DNA of 64,000 nucleotides, taken from NCBI RefSeq assembly GCF_009914755.1, contig NC_060936.1, one strand, 5' to 3'. Origin of the DNA: the human T2T-CHM13v2.0 reference genome, Homo sapiens. Below, piece by piece: positions 2,162 to 61,465 of the stretch. The notes under the pieces were generated by a model that did no database searches, was not told where the DNA came from, and saw only the letters and a program-made list of their open reading frames with translations. The position numbers and the translations under genes were made by a program. Each line of letters opens with the position of its first letter. Position 1 is the stretch's first letter.

Positions 2162-2693
<532 letters not shown>

Positions 2694-3814
2694 TCAAAGA
2701 GGCCTTACTAGTAGTTACCTGTAACAGCTACCATTTCTGAAGCTGACACCGTGCTGTGCCGTGGCCCAGGCTCTGAACCTGTGCTACCTTATGTCTGACT
2801 GATTCCAAAGACTTCCGTGCTCTTAACCACTATTTTGCCCTTTACTGTCCCAGGCTGGTAACAGACCGAGGTGTCTCACTGGGAGTAAAGCACCCTCAGG
2901 GTTAGGCGTGGGTCTAGGGTGCATGGGTGGGCACCCCAGAGGCTGACCGTCACCTTCCTGACTCTCCAGCGGTGCCTGCATAGTCTGCGGCACAGCATAG
3001 CTCACAAATATTGGCCGAGATGCTTCTTTGGAGCAGGCAGAGGTGAAGCTTCGTCGATTCTGCTGCACCCGGGCCATTGGCTGGGAGGTGGAGGCATGGG
3101 AGAGGTCTGCAGAGGAATCCGATGTTGATATGTTTTCTTGGGACCCACTGGAGGACCCAAGCCCGGAGGCTTAGTCCTGCTGCCCTGGCCTGTGGGGGAT
3201 GTTACTGGTGTGCTGGGCCGGGGCTGTCTCAAGATAATATGAGACCTGTTTCCTGTGCTGCCGGGGAAGAGTGCACCACACCGCCCAGCACAGAGGGCTC
3301 TCGGTGGGAAGGCGGGCCCAAGGAGGGCTGTCATTTCTGGGTTCTTCCGTTCAGAGGCCAGGGCCCTTCCTATCTTAGACCTTGGATGAGGAACACATTG
3401 GCCTTTCCCTGTGAGGTGGTTCCTGACTCTGGGGCCATCCTTCATCCGTTGCTCTTTTCCAAAGATGCAGAGAGATATTTCCAGTCTCCTTTTATGGCTC
3501 GGTGACTGGAGAGCCCTGGAGACTCAGCATCAGGCTGAACTTTTGCAAGCCTGCTGGCTGTTGGTACGGGGAGGAGGGGAGAGAAGCCACAGGGACCGGG
3601 AGACTGGGTCGCCACCCTCAGCAGGTGGCCAAGACTTTCCAGGCTGTCCTGACTGCAGGCGTTGTTAGGGCAGTCCTCTTGTTGGGACCACGCTCTAGGT
3701 TTTGCACCCATCCTTTACTGGTCCCTTCCCTTATTCATTTATTCATTCAAATATCTGCTTATACTGGGAAAGACAAAAGCAAGGATGAAACAGTCTTTGC
3801 CTTGTCATGGCTAG

Positions 3815-4465
<651 letters not shown>

Positions 4466-6394
4466 TAAAGAGAAGTTTTAAAGATACCTGAGCACCTAAT
4501 TACAGCTTTCCTTTCGATGTTGTAAACCATGTTGTTTAAGGAACACGGGACAAGAGTGTATTGGAAAGAAAGCGGCCAGCTACCTTAGGTGCTCTGTTAT
4601 GAATGTATTTCCTTAGACCCACACAGGGTTCTCTAACTGTCTTTTCCTGAAAATTCTTCCAATAAGCATTTATTGAACTTTTACTATGCTCAAGGCACAG
4701 GGCTTGGTCCTGCTGGCATGCAGAAGGGGGGGACGTGGCCACAGCTGCCCTGGGAAGAGGGGGGCATGTGGAGGGGATCCCCATTTCCTATACACAGGGC
4801 CCTGGCTCCGTCACAGATGAGGCCTGGTTGGTCTTGGGTCCATAACTTGTACTTTCAGAGTCAGGAAGCAGATGCTGGCAGGCTTGGAAACCTCGTCCAG
4901 GTTGGACGGTGGTGGTAGCAGAGGGATGAGCAGCAAGTGCTTCCTGGGCATTTATCAGCACACGTCTCCAGGCGTAAGACCTTCTGTCTGCCAGGCTAAT
5001 GGGCCACCCCTGGCACCCCATGGCACTGCATTTGGATGGATTTACAGGGGTCTTGGCTCTCAGCCTCATCTCTGTTCCTTAAACCCGGCTGCCTCTCTGG
5101 ATGCTGCCCAGAGGTGACGCTGATCAGATTGTGTGGGGAAGCCTGTGTGATGGATGGCTCATTTTGTGTCCTGGGTCTGCAGCCCACATTCCTGCCAAGA
5201 GCATACCTGATGCAGGGCCCTTTCTGCAGTGGTCCTCAAGAAATATTAACTGGTAATGAGGACCAGAGACTGAGGTTCACCCGTGCTGGCTTCTTCAGGT
5301 CCTTGTTCTACCATGACTAATAGCCCTCTCCTTAAACCACCCCCCAGGTCCCACCCTGGGATGAAAGACCAGCTGACCCTGATCCTCACTGCAGGTTTGT
5401 CCTATGGCGGAGATCCCGAGGGGGCCCTAAGTCACAGCTTTGGCCATCCAGACCCGGGGAGCCATCACTGGAAAGTGCCTATCAGGCTAAGGCAGAGGGG
5501 TGGGGTGTGGGCGGGCTGTGCCAGCCCACCGGGCAGGTGAGGGACCTGCAGGAGCCGAGTGCCTGAGCTGTCCTCCCCTGTCTATTAACTCCCCATTAGC
5601 ATGCATCAGTGCCGTTGCCTCTATCAGTTTGATTTATGCCACTGCGGTTTTGCTTACAAATTAGAAGCCGCTATTGTGCTAGGTCGGCTTTAAAATCGAT
5701 GCAGAGTAATTGCAGTACATGGGTAGTTGGATGACATTAACATGAGAAATGTGCTGTAGTCGTCATCCTTGGAACAAACACGTCCAATTACAGTGAAATT
5801 CTGTGCCCCTTACCCGGCTAATTTGAACACAGCTCACCGCCAAGGCCTCCTCCAGCATGGCCAGCCCTGGGCAGAGATCGTCACGAATGGATTTGACGGG
5901 AATGGGGCTGGGGACTGTCATGTTGAAGCCCGGTGGAGATGTGGGACAGGGACCTCGTTTGTTCCAGAGCCTGTTCCAACCCTCCCTGGCTTTTGTGGCA
6001 TGTTTTCTATGCCGTTTGCTGCAAGGATGCGTTGGGCATGGAGTAACATTCCCGAGACCGTCCTGCAGTACTGCACGTGTGCGTGTCTGTGCTTTGGTTT
6101 GTCTGTGTGTCTACCTTGTTTTAGAGTAAAAAAGTGAATCTGAGGCCAGATCATCAGTCTGCACCTGCCTCTCCAGCAGTCCCTGCATTTCCTCACCTAT
6201 AAAATGGGAAGGGGAACACTCCTTATGGAGCTGGTTCAAGTATTGAGCGAGAGACCGGGACTACAAGTGTTTTCTAACACAGGGGCATGAATTCAGCCGT
6301 GGCGGCGGCAGCTTGTTAGGAGAGCGATCAGCCTAGGGGCTGATGGGGTGGCCAGGCGTCGGGATGGCATCCAGTCTTCTCTGTCTGCATGCTG

Positions 6395-9290: not shown

Positions 9291-9373
9291 CTTCGAACTC
9301 CTGGGCTCAAGCAGTCCTCCTGCCTTAGCCTGTCAAGCAGCTGGGACAACAGGCATACACCACTGTGCCTGGC
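9291..9373 (-). mobile_element. FLAM/Alu monomer fragment
   Basis: tcgaactcctgggctcaagcagtcctcctgccttagcc...gctgggacaacaggcatacaccactgtgcctggc. Confidence 0.85.
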
Positions 9374-28290: not shown

Positions 28291-28425
28291 GTACTGGAGA
28301 GTCTTTGCTGGGCGGATTTGGGCATTCTCCTGCCCAGCCCGCCTTGCCTTCTGACTGTGGCGCAGAGAGGAAGGTGGGGTGGGCAAGAGAATGCCCAAAT
28401 CTGCCCAGCAAAGATTCTTCAGTAT
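28291..28425 (+). other. Long inverted repeat / RNA hairpin (55-bp arms, extendable inward to a ~9-nt loop)
   Basis: 28291-28345 is the reverse complement of 28371-28425 at 48/55 positions. Confidence 0.93.
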
Positions 28426-56728: not shown

Positions 56729-58092
56729 GGCTGAGGGCTGAGAGCACCATGTCTCAGACTCGGCTAAGACTGCGCCAGAGGGACCTAAGAAATGATCTCG
56801 TCCAAATCCCAAGTTTTAAAGGAAATTGGGCCTCCGAGAGCTAAAGAATCTTAAGGTCACACCAGGGAGCAGCATGATGAGAGAGGCATTTTAGGAAAAG
56901 AATCAGGCAGCTCTATGCAGGCTGGGCTGGAAACTAGAGGCCAGGGGCAGGGAGGGCAGTGGGGGCCGTGATCTGGACATGGGACCTGTGGCGAAGGCCC
57001 AGTCTTGGTGCCTGTCCCCTGTCAGTCGGAGGTCCCCTGGGAGCAGGTAGTGAAGGCTTCTGCACCAAATGCCAGAAACCAAGGTTTTGTCCCAGCCCAG
57101 CAGTGTGACTGGGGACTTCCTTGTCCCCCCGCTTAGCTTCCTGGAAAATCGAGGCGTGACCTTTGTGTTTTCTTCTTGCCGGGAGGCTCTGTTAGTGTTG
57201 GGCCATCAGAAGATGGGAGCAGAGAGCTCATCTCGGCAGGAGCCCCTTGAGGATGGGAGCGTGGCAGTGGGGATGTGCGTGGCACCCGCTGTACTGCACA
57301 GGCCTCCTCACTGGGCAGACGTGCACCATGCGTGGAGTTGTGCCAGGCGGGAGCTGTGATGGAGGCAGGAACAGGTTTGAGGGCTTGGAGAGGAAGCCTT
57401 CCAGTCCAGACTGCGCCCCCGTAGGGTAGGCCGCAGATCTTTCCTGGGGGCCTGGAGGACTTTGGACAGGAAATGGGAAAGGAAGCAGATTTGGGGACAG
57501 GGCACCAGCTGTGTTCCCTGAGAGGTAGAAGGCTCCCAGGTGGGTCTGGCAAGACCAAATCAAAGGATGTGGAGTGTGAAGTCAGAGAACCAGTTTGAAG
57601 AGAGGTGACCAGGTCCTGGAGTTTCTGACCTAAGAGGTTTTCCTAGGTAGAGGTACCTGAGCATCCCAGCACTTATCCCAGGAGGGAAGTGGAGAGAGGG
57701 CTCGGAAGGGGCCCCCCGCTGCAGGTACACCCACAGTGGGAAACCGCTTCAGGAGAAGGCTGTGCTTTGAGAACTTTTCCAGGCCCGAGAAGGGTCCGGG
57801 CTCTGAGCTCTGGGGTCCTGCGTGTCTCCAGCTGCAGCGTGTGGGGGCGCCCTGCAGCTCCCCTGCAGCGAGTACCTGCGGCAGTGGGGTTTCCGCTTAC
57901 TCATTCCAGGGTCTGGCTTTTAGAGCCATAAATCTTCAGCATGAAGATCATAAATTCTCCATGGTATGATTAATGAAAGAAAAATTGAGACGGCAGCATA
58001 GAAACTGACCAGATTGAAGAAAAGTCAGAGTGACTATTTGGATGAAAGTTTCAGCCATCGCCGGCGAACCCAGAGCTTCTGAACCAGCCTGG

Positions 58093-58110
58093 AGCGCCAC
58101 CTAGTGGCCG
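58093..58110 (-). promoter_or_regulatory. Strong CTCF motif (reverse)
   Basis: Minus strand reads CGGCCACTAGGTGGCGCT, a 14/14 match to CCASYAGRKGGCRS, within a CpG cluster. Confidence 0.8.
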
Positions 58111-58389
58111 TAGGCGGGGCTAGCCCCGTTCCCTGGCGAAGCTTTGTGATGGCCCAGTTGGGCGATGCTGTGGGTCTCAGTGTGCCCATTCTTTGGGAGC
58201 CCTGACCTGGTTCCATGTGGGGCTGCGCCAGGGGACAGGAGGCACAGGCCCACTCTCCACAGTGTGAAGGACCCAGGCAGCTGCTGGACGTAAGTCATTC
58301 GGACCCCCCTGCAGCTCCTTGCACTGTCTCTTGGTTAGTAATACGTGGCGGTGTCTGTTCCTACCTTTTTCTTCATGCACACCTTTCTG

Positions 58390-59300
58390 GTTCCCCATTT
58401 ATCAAAATCCTATTCATTCTTCAAAGCCCAGCAAGGCCTGTCAATGCCACCTTCAAAACATCTCAAATTGGACCATTTCTCACCGCTCCTCCGTAGCCTC
58501 CTGGTGTGAGTCGTCCCCAGCTCTCAAGCTGGTCTGGCTCCTGGGAAGAAAGAGAGGCTCGCAATTAGGCAGGGTAGGGATGCCCACGGGAAGGTGAGGG
58601 GAGGGGACAGACGCCTCCCTGAGGAAGGGCATCTCCTTCTTATTCCTCCACAAACCCAAGCCTAATCACAGCAGCCTCCCAGTTGCTCTCCTGGCCTCCC
58701 TCGGGCCCTCCCGCGGTCGCTTCTCCCAACAGCAGCCAGAGTGATCTGCTGAAAACCTCAGTGAGATCATGTCACTCTCCAGCTCTGGGACCTTCCCGTC
58801 ACACTGAGGACACTTGCACGTTTCCTTTACCTGCGAGGTCCCAGCTGGCCTGGCCCCCGGCCACCCTGCCTGCTTTGTCTCCTACCATGTGTCACCTCAC
58901 TCACTGTTGTAGCACACGGCCAGCGTGCTCCTCCTTGGCTGGCCAGGCTCCTTCCCACTCCGGGGCTTTTGCACCTGCTGTTCTCTCTGTCTGGAACGTT
59001 CTTCCCCCAGATAGTTATGTTGCTCCCTCCCCCTGTTTATTTGGGTTTTTGCTTAAACACCACCTCTTCCAAGACACCTTCGCTGCCCACACCCTCCCCA
59101 GTTATTTTCTGGCTCTTTACATTGCCTTATTTTTCTTCGTGGCGCATGTCAGCAACTGCAGTTACGTCATTTGTTGCTTACATAAGGTCAGTGTCTCCTG
59201 TAAGAATCTACTCTTCGTGAAGGCAGGGTCTTTGCCAGTGAGGTGTACCACTGTCTCCCCAGCTCGGAGAACAGGGCCTGGCACTGAATACGCAGGTGTT
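58390..59300 (+). mobile_element. L2 3' region interrupted by an inverted templated insertion at 58515-58660
   Basis: cagcagccagagtgatct...gatcatgtcactc...tttgcacctgctgttctctctgtctggaac...gaaggcagggtcttt...agaacagggcctggcac. Confidence 0.8.
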
Positions 59301-59471
59301 CACTTGGGTTTGTGGAGGAATAAGCGAAGGAGATGCCCTTCCTCAGGGAGGCGTCTGTCCCCTCCCCTCACCTTCCCATGGGCATCCCTACCCTGCCTAA
59401 TTGCGGGTTGCCCTGTCTCAGCCCTGAGCCTCTGTTTCTTCCCAGGAACCAGAGCAGCTTGAGAGCAGGGG
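58515..59471. repeat. Inverted duplication: 58515-58660 vs 59303-59471 with a 642-bp spacer
   Basis: 141/146 aligned bases identical, plus a 21-bp and a 2-bp indel. Confidence 0.95.
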
Positions 59472-60894
59472 CTGGGCTGATTCCTGGAGTCAGCATAGTC
59501 TGCACAGGCCCTGGCACAGAACAGCTGCCCGGGAAGTGCCTTTCCAGCAAGCAGTGCCCGGAGCTGGCCACCCACTTCACATAGCTTATTCCAATCTAAT
59601 TCTCACAGCAGTCCAATAGGAAGGGGATGATATTCTCACTCTGCATACGAGAGGTTTGCAAGCTCACACCACCAGGATAAGCTGGAGCCGGGAGTCCTGT
59701 TTGGGTCTGTGACTCCCAAGCCCTTACCACCTGCACTTTCACCCGGCATAGAATGTTCTCGTCCTCCATCTGCCCCTAGTCCACCCACCCTTTAGGGACT
59801 GCCTCCTTCAACTGGCTTCCATGACTGCGACAGTGATTGCCTCCTCTGAGCGCCCGTAGCGTTGACTGGGCACCAGTCCATCCCACCTGGGAGTGGTAGA
59901 TTTTGCACTTTGATTGCTCCCATCCAGCCAGAACAGAGGCCCCTGGAAAACAGGTCTTTAAAGTGGTTGTAGCTTTTCTGGCATGGCACACTGCATGCTG
60001 TAGGCACTCAGTAAATACTGTTTCACTGATTGATTGGCTCCTCAGACTCAGCACACTTCCCATGAGCTGGCGGAGGGAGTCGGGGAGTGCCAGCTATATC
60101 GAGCATAAAATAAGACAGATGTGGAGATTTGCAGCCGGTGAAATGGAAGCTTCCCCAGGTGGAGCTGGTGGCGCCGGCAGCCCCAGGGGTGCTGTTGGGG
60201 AGAGTTGCTTTTCGGTTTGGGGGCCGATCATGCCAGAGGCCAGCTTATTGGATGGGTGGTGAAGGCAGCCGTGGACTCCCACGTCCCGCACACTGGCCAG
60301 GCCCCCAGCCAGCCGATGACTACCTCCTTTCTCCATCTGTGGGAAATTGTTCTTCAGACTCCAGTGGACAAATGGCCCTTCGGGTCAGAGTAACAGGACA
60401 CAGTCGCTGGAAGTTCTGGCTCCAAGAAACCCGACTCCGAGGGTCCCTTCCCACCTCCAGAGATGAAGTCTTTCTTGCTTTTCCTGACCCCAGTTCTTCC
60501 CTCTCACCAGGCCTCCGTCTTGGACACTGGGGCCTCTTCTCTATCATGCAGAGTAACCTAACCACTCACATGTGTCCAGTACCTTCCATGTATTTGTTAC
60601 GCACTTTTGCCTCTGTGTGGTTTAATCCATCCTCAGAATGACCTGGGAGGCTCTTGAAACTGGCACAGTCTCCGTTGTCACATGGGGAGACTGAGGCACA
60701 GAGAGGCTAGGGGACTGTCTGGGTCACACAGCCGACATGCTTCGGGTCTGCAGCCCGACGGTAGTCCCGTTCTCACCTTGTCGGTTCTCACTTTGTCTGT
60801 GTCTCAGAGCATGGGGTGGGGACCTGCAGTGTTCCCAGGTCCATGGACGAATGTGAGAGCAGTGCCAGGCTAATGGGCTTTCCTTCCTTTCCAG

Positions 60895-61086
60895 CTCTGT
60901 GGCTGTGGGCTGCTGGGAGTGGGCATCTGGCTCTCCGTGTCCCAAGGCAACTTTGCCACCTTCTCCCCCAGCTTCCCTTCGTTGTCTGCAGCCAACCTGG
61001 TCATTGCCATAGGCACCATTGTCATGGTGACGGGCTTCCTCGGCTGCCTGGGGGCCATCAAGGAAAACAAGTGCCTCCTCCTCAGC
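60895..61086 (+). CDS. TSPAN9: Tetraspanin-9 internal coding exon, 192 bp (LCGCGLLGVGIWLSVSQGNFATFSPSFPSLSAANLVIAIGTIVMVTGFLGCLGAIKENKCLLLS; end of TM1, small loop, TM2)
   Basis: Acceptor tttccttcctttccag| with a CTAAT branch-like motif at 60870-60874; donor AGC|gtaagt; 64 codons, phase 0/0; tetraspanin GFLGCxGAxKE motif; matches my recollection of the human TSPAN9 protein. Confidence 0.97.
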
Positions 61087-61465
61087 GTAAGTTCTGTCCA
61101 AATCCCCAGCCCCTCCAACTCCTGATCTCCTTGCACTTGGACCCCTGGGACAGGCAAGACCTGGAATATTAGACACCTGGGTGTCCAACCTGAGCCCAGG
61201 GAAACTGCTTCTAGAACGTTCTAGGCTTGACCACACCCCTCCTCCTCATGGTTGGTTATGCCTACCCCTGGTTGTCCCTCCCACTCCCTGATTAGTCAGC
61301 TCCTTTATGTCCCTGTCCTAGCTATCTGGGTTTCCTCAGGAGGAGCTGGCTTCTCCCAGACCTGGGAAGCCCCACCTAGGCGCCGCCTGTCCCTGCCTTC
61401 CACACCCTCCTTGTCCTCAGCCCTGCCCATTACCACCTACCCATGCCTGGCCCTTTCCTTTCCAG

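What the first reader, a model, noticed from the sequence alone, without database searches (positions are those of the whole stretch)
58515..59471. Inverted templated insertion into an L2, creating a hairpin and inversion-prone cassette 1.4 kb upstream of an exon
Seen: 58515-58660 is the reverse complement of 59303-59471, lacking 21 bp (gggttgccctgtctcagccct) and 2 bp. L2-like sequence runs up to 58514 and resumes at 58661, so the left arm is the derived copy, with no poly(A) or TSD. Divergence is uneven: 4 substitutions in the outer 46 bp versus 1 substitution plus a 2-bp indel in the inner 100 bp. Inference: a template-switch repair scar (FoSTeS/MMBIR or Pol-theta type), with the inner part possibly homogenised by gene conversion or recurrent inversion of the 642-bp spacer. 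In pre-mRNA it would form a ~100-146 bp non-Alu duplex near the 60895 acceptor.
Basis: partly seen in the sequence, partly recalled or inferred. Interest (0 to 1): 0.72.

Follow-up and report, generated by a model that had tools for sequence, protein, structure and literature searches.

The report
Inverted local copy inside an L2
A 146-base stretch in a TSPAN9 intron is a backwards copy of sequence 642 bases downstream, most likely an old neutral DNA-copying slip of a known kind, and nothing shows that it does anything.

Summary
Window 58515-58660 (146 nt) is the reverse complement of 59303-59471 (169 nt). The copies differ by 5 substitutions, a 21-nt gap and a 2-nt gap. In the whole CHM13 assembly the sequence occurs only at these two places, so it is not a dispersed repeat.

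Profiles built from other genomic L2 copies show one L2 3' part running colinearly on both sides of the left arm. The L2's own tail continues 25 nt into the right arm. So the right arm is the source and the left arm is the derived copy. The 642-nt spacer keeps its ancestral orientation. There is no poly(A) and no target-site duplication.

This is the known "1-4-3-2" template-switch mutation (MMBIR-like templated insertion). It is long (146-169 nt) but within the reported range, where the longest is 318 bp.

Arm divergence of about 3.5% suggests a primate-age event, roughly 6-40 My, but this is undated without orthologues. The uneven divergence is weak (p=0.03, or 0.11 after removing an ambiguous junction). 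It does not require gene conversion.

A hairpin of about 137 bp is predicted in the pre-mRNA. Editing, inversion and any splicing effect could not be tested. This is an ordinary, probably neutral scar.

The parts
58429..58514 (+). L2 3'-part sequence immediately upstream of the insertion (profile positions 313-400)
   Evidence: second nhmmer hit, E 1.1e-3, colinear with the main hit; pairwise Smith-Waterman against copy L028 scored 123 versus shuffles 75+-13 (1 of 200 shuffles as good).
58515..58660 (-). Left arm: the derived inverted copy (146 nt). Its first 18 nt (58515-58532) also resemble the L2 sequence expected at this point, so the true outer breakpoint lies somewhere in 58515-58532.
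   Evidence: alignment. (interrupts the L2). (12 of 16 L2 profile positions 401-416 matched by 58515-58532).
58661..59302 (+). 642-nt spacer: the rest of the same L2 3' part, in ancestral orientation
   Evidence: 58667-59017, E 4.7e-40. (58730-59304, E 6.7e-53). (59123-59327, E 7.4e-13).
59303..59471 (+). Right arm: the source (169 nt). 59303-59327 is the terminal tail of the L2 in its native position. 59328-59471 is flanking sequence that is single-copy apart from the left arm.
59405..59426 (+). 21-nt segment (placement ambiguous by 1 nt) present only in the source arm
   Evidence: It does not form a significant DNA hairpin (z 0.74 and 0.08).
59325..59326 (+). CG dinucleotide present only in the source arm

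Best explanation
This is a single germline template-switch event of the '1-4-3-2' type in the four-point model (equivalently an MMBIR/FoSTeS-like templated insertion).

While an old L2 3' fragment in a TSPAN9 intron was being copied, the growing strand left its template inside the L2, at about 58514-58532. It re-primed on the opposite strand 0.8-0.95 kb downstream and copied about 130-169 nt backwards. That stretch was the flank beyond the L2 plus the last 25 nt of the L2's own tail. The strand then returned to the original template at or within about 16 nt of where it had left.

The result is an inverted repeat with an uninverted 642-nt spacer. The scar is most likely neutral.

What is shown: the repeat, its uniqueness in the genome, which arm is the copy, and the spacer orientation.

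What is inferred: the replicative mechanism, the age (primate lineage, order 6-40 My from about 3.5% arm divergence), and that the TSPAN9 pre-mRNA folds the arms into a duplex of about 137 bp that ADAR could edit.
For: - Inverted copy with 141 of 146 identical aligned columns.
- Only 2 of 2 scored genome-wide matches, both at this locus. The same holds for 59328-59600, and 58360-58514 matches only itself.
- L2 profile positions 313-410 and 422-772 flank the left arm colinearly.
- The L2-tail profile aligns through 59327, 25 nt into the right arm. The right arm is therefore in native context and the left arm carries a reversed copy of the L2's own tail.
- No poly(A) or target-site duplication.
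- Outer junction homeology: the donor's reverse complement matches 10 of 16 L2 profile positions at the exit point (binomial p 0.0016 at a fixed register) and the left arm matches 12 of 16. This is as expected for microhomology-guided re-priming.
- Literature, passages read: type 1-4-3-2 creates an inverted repeat and makes up 31% of high-confidence human-chimp events (PMC5453318). The longest template-switch event in haplotype assemblies is 318 bp (bioRxiv 10.1101/2021.11.26.470150). Germline MMBIR-type templated insertions occur in normal fibroblasts (PMC8421209).
- RNA fold: MFE -531.6 versus -353.2+-8.5 kcal/mol for 20 shuffles. In a 2.4-kb context there are 137 arm-to-arm pairs, helices of 12, 5, 13, 8, 26, 52 and 21 bp, and no G-U pairs.
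Against: - No outgroup sequence was available. Polarity and 'one event' rest only on L2 colinearity, and the upstream L2 hit is weak (E 1.1e-3).
- The copied length (146-169 nt) and the donor distance (642-nt spacer) lie in the long tail of described short-range template switches. Published scans use flanks of only 150-500 bp.
- The inner junction shows at most 1 nt of microhomology.
- The data cannot separate a replication-fork switch from double-strand-break repair synthesis.
- Nothing here shows that the RNA duplex forms in cells.
Confidence: 0.78

Rival explanations
1. This is double-strand-break repair rather than a replication error. A break inside the L2 was repaired by synthesis-dependent end joining (Pol-theta/SD-MMEJ type) or by out-of-register SDSA. 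One 3' end annealed to the nearby inverted microhomology, copied about 130-169 nt, and was then joined back.
For: The footprint is the same as above: an inverted nearby template, homeology at the outer junction, almost none at the inner junction (compatible with end joining), and possible loss of about 14-16 nt of L2 at the site. The error-rich outer 45 nt and the 21-nt skip would fit a low-fidelity, poorly processive polymerase.
Against: Templated insertions by end joining are usually much shorter than 146 nt. This is my own knowledge and was not checked in a call. The sequence alone cannot discriminate between the two.
Confidence: 0.15
2. The repeat is older than its divergence suggests. It is kept similar in its inner 100 bp by gene conversion between the arms, or by repeated inversion of the spacer.
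For: Substitutions are uneven: 4 of 45 outer columns versus 1 of 101 inner columns (Fisher p=0.032). The 21-nt heterology would be a natural barrier to a conversion tract.
Against: - The p-value falls to 0.11 when the first 18 nt, which may be native L2, are dropped.
- Three of the 4 outer differences are transversions. Two of them make the left arm match the L2 profile, which points to junction homeology or copying errors rather than slow divergence.
- The longest perfect identity is 52 bp.
- The spacer is in ancestral orientation.
Confidence: 0.06
3. Both arms are independent insertions of one dispersed repeat family, or are the terminal inverted repeats of a DNA transposon.
For: The outer part of the right arm plus downstream sequence (59431-59518) has a faint resemblance to an L2 3' end (E 0.056).
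Against: - Whole-genome search finds the arm only at these two places.
- The arms are 96.6% identical, whereas L2 copies match this one at 70-93% over short cores.
- The inner 25 nt of the right arm are the contiguous tail of the neighbouring L2. An independent insertion would not reproduce this in reverse inside the same L2.
- There is no target-site duplication.
Confidence: 0.01
4. The hairpin is functional. It could be a selected intronic dsRNA that tunes use of the 60895 acceptor, serves as an ADAR/dsRNA-sensor substrate, or yields small RNAs.
For: The predicted duplex is strong: 137 bp, and duplexfold gives -301.7 kcal/mol. The hairpin is transcribed in sense within TSPAN9 according to the hub's annotation.
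Against: - It lies 1,424 nt from the acceptor and flanks no exon.
- Rfam gives nothing above threshold in 57000-61200. The only hit is mir-1271, 21.2 bits against a gathering score of 80.5, and it lies outside the arms.
- No paper links TSPAN9 with inverted repeats (0 papers). The one TSPAN9 + A-to-I + intron paper concerns an m6A SNP in the 3'UTR.
- The mismatches are not compensated: 5 unpaired substitutions and no G-U pairs.
Confidence: 0.03

Closest known systems
Template-switch mutation, four-point model type '1-4-3-2' (Loytynoja & Goldman 2017, PMC5453318; passages read)
   Same: [quoted passage not shown] The original is kept and the spacer is not inverted, so a new inverted repeat or hairpin is created in one step.
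   Different: The fragment is 146-169 nt and the donor lies beyond a 642-nt spacer. Typical events are tens of bp within a few hundred bp. The longest reported is 318 bp (10.1101/2021.11.26.470150, passages read). The copy is not perfect: 5 substitutions and gaps of 21 nt and 2 nt.
Germline MMBIR-linked templated insertions (MMB-TI; Osia et al. 2021, PMC8421209; passages read)
   Same: Inverted nearby template, with microhomology or microhomeology at the switch point. They are found as inherited variants in normal cells.
   Different: Those were detected in short reads and are short. Here only the outer junction shows homeology (10-12 of 16), and the inner junction has at most 1 nt.
De novo hairpins and miRNA genes made by template switching (PMC8794818 and PMC10710096; search listing and start of abstract only)
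   Same: One-step creation of a long, nearly perfect RNA stem from non-hairpin sequence.
   Different: Those stems have miRNA-size arms and short loops. Here the arms are about 140 nt with a 642-nt loop, and there is no Rfam miRNA match in the arms.
Inverted Alu pairs in introns as dsRNA/ADAR substrates (my own knowledge; one such pair lies at 2347-2682/3852-4466 in this window, named Alu from recall)
   Same: An intronic inverted repeat that should fold into a long duplex in the pre-mRNA.
   Different: The arms are single-copy sequence, not a repeat family. They are shorter than an Alu but far more similar: 96.6% identical, against 72-83% for the Alu pair pieces.

Membership tests
Template-switch mutation type 1-4-3-2 | The inserted fragment is the reverse complement of nearby sequence on the same chromosome | tested here: met
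   141 of 146 aligned columns identical, donor 642 nt downstream.
Template-switch mutation type 1-4-3-2 | Switch-point order: exit and return points adjacent and upstream of the donor, donor retained, spacer not inverted | tested here: met
   L2 profile 313-400(410) lies before the arm and 422-772 after it, on the same strand; the donor is in native L2-tail context. Exit and return are 0-16 L2 positions apart.
Template-switch mutation type 1-4-3-2 | An ancestral or sister sequence lacks the copy (a derived state is shown) | not testable with these tools
   No primate or second human assembly is reachable. Polarity is inferred from L2 colinearity only.
Template-switch mutation type 1-4-3-2 | Short range and short length | tested here: inconclusive
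   The fragment is 146-169 nt with a 642-nt spacer. This is inside the reported maximum of 318 bp, but the donor is farther away than the 150-500 bp flanks used in published scans.
MMBIR/FoSTeS templated insertion | Microhomology at each template switch | tested here: inconclusive
   Outer junction: the donor's reverse complement matches 10 of 16 L2 profile positions (p 0.0016 at a fixed register). Inner junction: at most 1 nt. The pre-insertion L2 sequence is unknown, so exact microhomology cannot be read.
Retrotransposed copy or dispersed repeat | Poly(A) tail, target-site duplication, many genomic copies | tested here: not met
   no poly(A) or direct repeats at the ends; only the two local copies in 3.1 Gb. 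Caveat: the search scores only first-look candidates.
DNA-transposon terminal inverted repeats / MITE | Arms bound a mobile unit that recurs in the genome and has a target-site duplication | tested here: not met
   The arms are unique. The 'interior' is the continuation of the L2 that also lies outside the left arm.
Inverted-repeat (NAHR) inversion cassette | Both spacer orientations exist among haplotypes or species | not testable with these tools
   Only one assembly is held, and there the spacer is ancestral. The longest perfect identity is 52 bp.
ADAR-edited intronic dsRNA | Long intramolecular duplex in a transcribed strand | tested here: met
   Prediction only: 137 pairs and z -21. Transcription in sense is taken from the hub's TSPAN9 annotation.
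ADAR-edited intronic dsRNA | A-to-G mismatches in RNA reads | not testable with these tools
   No editing database is available. Literature searches found nothing on this intron.

The most novel reading that the evidence does not exclude
The arm is a readable fossil of how one germline template-switch proceeded. If copying began at the outer end, the first 45 nt were made with about 9% errors (3 of 4 of them transversions). The polymerase then skipped 21 nt of template, and the next 100 nt were copied almost perfectly. That would match an error-prone, poorly processive start followed by a processive phase, as proposed for MMBIR.

If ape orthologues all carry the same outer differences, those differences date to the event itself. 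In addition, the resulting 137-bp non-Alu duplex may be a lineage-specific hyper-edited dsRNA in TSPAN9 pre-mRNA.
Probability: 0.12. Interest if true: 0.45.

Novelty: new member of a known kind. Interest (0 to 1): 0.2.

Why it matters
If the reading is right, this is a clean and unusually long example of a short-range template switch. Polarity can be read from the interrupted L2 without an outgroup. It is useful as a teaching or benchmark case for tools that cap fragment length and donor distance. It also shows how a perfect-looking intronic dsRNA can arise in one step from single-copy DNA. It does not open a new question, and no function is indicated.

Tried and rejected
1. BLASTN of the flanks, arms and spacer against 28 fetched L2 loci found only the conserved L2 core (window about 58946-59070). 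It could not test continuity across the arm.
2. A 5-copy L2 profile reached only 58730-59304.
3. Pairwise Smith-Waterman of the upstream flank against three L2 copies was borderline. L028 scored 123 with 1 of 200 shuffles as good; L033 and L005 were not significant. I therefore fetched more copies and built larger profiles.
4. I considered that the 21-nt segment was skipped because it forms a hairpin in the template. This is rejected: DNA folds of both strands have z 0.74 and 0.08.
5. Rfam over 57000-61200 gave no family at threshold.
7. Literature on the locus: TSPAN9 + 'inverted repeat' gave 0 papers. TSPAN9 + 'template switch' gave 3 papers that, judging by their titles and the start of their abstracts alone (they were not read), have nothing to do with this locus. 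TSPAN9 + A-to-I + intron gave 1 paper, about an m6A SNP in the 3'UTR.
8. The 32-nt, 75% inverted match 58479-58510/59663-59694 was not pursued. I take it for chance.

Full report
**1. Is it there?**

Yes. The repeat finder on 57500-60500 returns 4 inverted pairs, and three of them are consecutive pieces of one repeat. A gapped local alignment joins them. Window 58515-58660 (146 nt) pairs with the reverse complement of 59303-59471 (169 nt) in blocks of 45, 79 and 22 columns.

The blocks are separated by two gaps. One is 21 nt, present only in the right arm at 59405/6-59425/6. The other is 2 nt, the CG at 59325-59326.

Five columns differ. Four are in the outer 45: arm positions 5 (A/T), 18 (G/C), 24 (C/T) and 38 (G/C). 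One is in the 79-column block, a CpG site reading ACG versus ATG.

Chance cannot produce this. The expected number of 79-mers with at most 1 mismatch among all position pairs in 3 kb is about 6e-39.

In the whole 64-kb window, the only other inverted pairs with arms of at least 40 nt within 5 kb are:
- pieces of an inverted repeat pair at 2347-4466, which I take to be Alu from recall;
- a 64-nt pair at 9293/10562;
- a separate small hairpin at 28292-28424.

**2. Is it a repeat family?**

No. The window's own genome (3.1 Gb, CHM13) was searched with the 169-nt right arm. It gave 2 matches from 2 scored candidates, the arm itself and the left arm. Searching with 59328-59600 gave the same two places. 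Searching with 58360-58514 gave only itself.

One caveat applies: the tool scores first-look candidates only and skips very common words. Very diverged relatives would therefore be missed.

**3. Which arm is the copy?**

The surrounding sequence is an old L2 3' part. Searching with 58380-59302 found 39 places elsewhere in the genome (41 matches; 66 candidates, 40 scored). Of these, 38 cover only the conserved core, query 563-716.

Single-sequence nhmmer against the 28 fetched loci extended the homology over query positions 296-914, which is window 58675-59293. No copy crossed the arm in that test, so I fetched more copies using two long ones as queries. I then built a profile. The first round gave 39 hits among 66 loci, and the second round aligned 73 pieces into a 779-position profile.

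This profile hits the window twice, on the same strand and in order:
- positions 313-410 match 58429-58524 (E 1.1e-3);
- positions 422-772 match 58667-59017 (E 4.7e-40).

So the L2 continues across the left arm, which is an interruption of it. The upstream hit is weak, but it is colinear. It is also backed by one pairwise comparison (L028: score 123, with 1 of 200 shuffles as good).

A second profile, of the L2 3' end with its tail (59 aligned pieces), matches 59123-59327 (E 7.4e-13). The L2's own terminal tail therefore runs 25 nt into the right arm. The right arm sits in native context and is the source. The left arm contains a reversed copy of the tail of the very L2 that it interrupts.

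The 642-nt spacer has the same orientation as the L2 piece upstream, so it is not inverted in this assembly. No poly(A) and no flanking direct repeat are visible.

**4. The junctions**

Profile position 400 aligns with 58514, and position 422 with 58667.

The profile consensus for positions 401-416 matches the first 18 nt of the left arm at 12 of 16 positions, with a 2-nt insertion. It matches the donor's reverse complement at 10 of 16 positions. At a fixed register, the binomial tails are 3.8e-5 and 1.6e-3.

Both differences between the arms in this stretch (positions 5 and 18) are places where the left arm carries the L2 profile's commonest base.

Two readings remain open:
- (a) 58515-58532 is the native L2 3' end that annealed to a 16-of-18 homeology in the donor. 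In that case about 129 nt were inserted and no L2 was lost.
- (b) All 146 nt were copied, and about 14-16 nt of L2 were lost.

Either way the exit point shows homeology with the donor, as expected for microhomology-guided re-priming. The inner junction shows at most 1 nt. Only an empty orthologous site can settle this.

**5. Mechanism**

[quoted passage not shown] That type creates an inverted repeat and made up 31% of high-confidence human-chimp events (PMC5453318, passages read).

Such events are usually tens of bp. However, 318 bp is the longest reported from haplotype-resolved human assemblies, and 90-125 bp from gnomAD clusters (10.1101/2021.11.26.470150, passages read). Inherited MMBIR-type templated insertions with inverted templates and microhomology or microhomeology are described in normal fibroblasts (PMC8421209, passages read).

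The present case is a long, relatively distant member of this known class. I cannot separate a replication-fork switch from break repair with templated synthesis. I give the replicative reading 0.78, counting MMBIR, and break repair by end joining or SDSA 0.15.

**6. Uneven divergence**

Four of 45 outer columns differ against 1 of 101 inner columns, giving Fisher p=0.032. If the 18 ambiguous nt are dropped, the figures are 2/27 versus 1/101 and p=0.11.

Three of the four outer differences are transversions, which is unlike ordinary germline divergence. This is weak: p is about 0.11 by my own arithmetic, assuming one third of substitutions are transversions.

Gene conversion of the inner part is therefore not needed. 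Junction homeology plus copying errors near a switch point, with the 21-nt gap as a second small switch, explain the pattern at least as well.

I tested whether the 21-nt segment forms a template hairpin that a polymerase might skip. It does not.

**7. Age**

Jukes-Cantor distance is 3.5% (5/146), or 2.4% (3/128). I assumed rates of 1e-9 and 0.5e-9 per site per year. These give 17.5 My (Poisson 95% interval 5.6-40) and 35 My for 5/146, and 12 and 24 My for 3/128.

If some differences were made during copying, the event is younger. If conversion acted, it is older. This is inference only.

**8. RNA**

TSPAN9 is on the + strand (hub annotation), so both arms lie in one intron. Folding 58495-59491 gives -531.6 kcal/mol, against -353.2+-8.5 for 20 shuffles.

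In a 2.4-kb context the arms still pair with each other. There are 137 pairs in helices of 12, 5, 13, 8, 26, 52 and 21 bp, with no G-U pairs. The duplex energy is -301.7 kcal/mol, and 58 adenosines lie in paired positions.

That is a plausible ADAR substrate by general knowledge. But the hairpin flanks no exon, ends 1,424 nt before the 60895 acceptor, and has no Rfam match. No data on editing, duplex formation or inversion could be reached, and no paper addresses this locus.

**9. Verdict**

The add-ons (conversion or inversion, and an effect on splicing) are unsupported or untestable here.

It is a new instance of a known kind of mutation and is probably neutral. Interest 0.2.

Noticed in passing
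window 28292-28424: A second hairpin in the same intron that is not a repeat family. It has 62-nt arms that are 85% complementary, with a 9-nt loop. It is unique in the genome and matches only itself in reverse. Rfam gives only sub-threshold generic miRNA-hairpin hits; the best is mir-3160 at 45.9 bits against a gathering score of 80. It may be another template-switch product.
   Followed up: partly
window 59431-59518 and 59499-59571: The outer end of the right arm and the sequence after it faintly resemble a second L2 3' end in + orientation (E 0.056). A weak mir-1271 match lies at 59499-59571 on the - strand (21.2 bits against 80.5, E 0.3). It is probably the same L2/MIR-tail-like sequence.
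   Followed up: partly
window 59901-60034: Another match to the L2-tail profile on the + strand (E 9.4e-5). Several L2/MIR-type 3' ends are therefore clustered upstream of the 60895 exon.
   Followed up: no
window 2347-2682 and 3852-4466: An inverted pair of repeats with 72-83% complementary pieces and a 1.2-2 kb spacer. I take them to be Alu from recall of the printed 57-nt arm. This is the ordinary kind of intronic inverted repeat, useful for comparison.
   Followed up: no
window 58479-58510 and 59663-59694: A 32-nt, 75% complementary inverted match just outside the two arms. It is probably chance and was not tested.
   Followed up: no
L033:1439-1560 (query): Most BLAST matches of other genomic L2 copies to this copy begin at query 190-254. 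That is around the L2 position where the left arm is inserted in the window. It may be a boundary of sequence conservation within L2.
   Followed up: no
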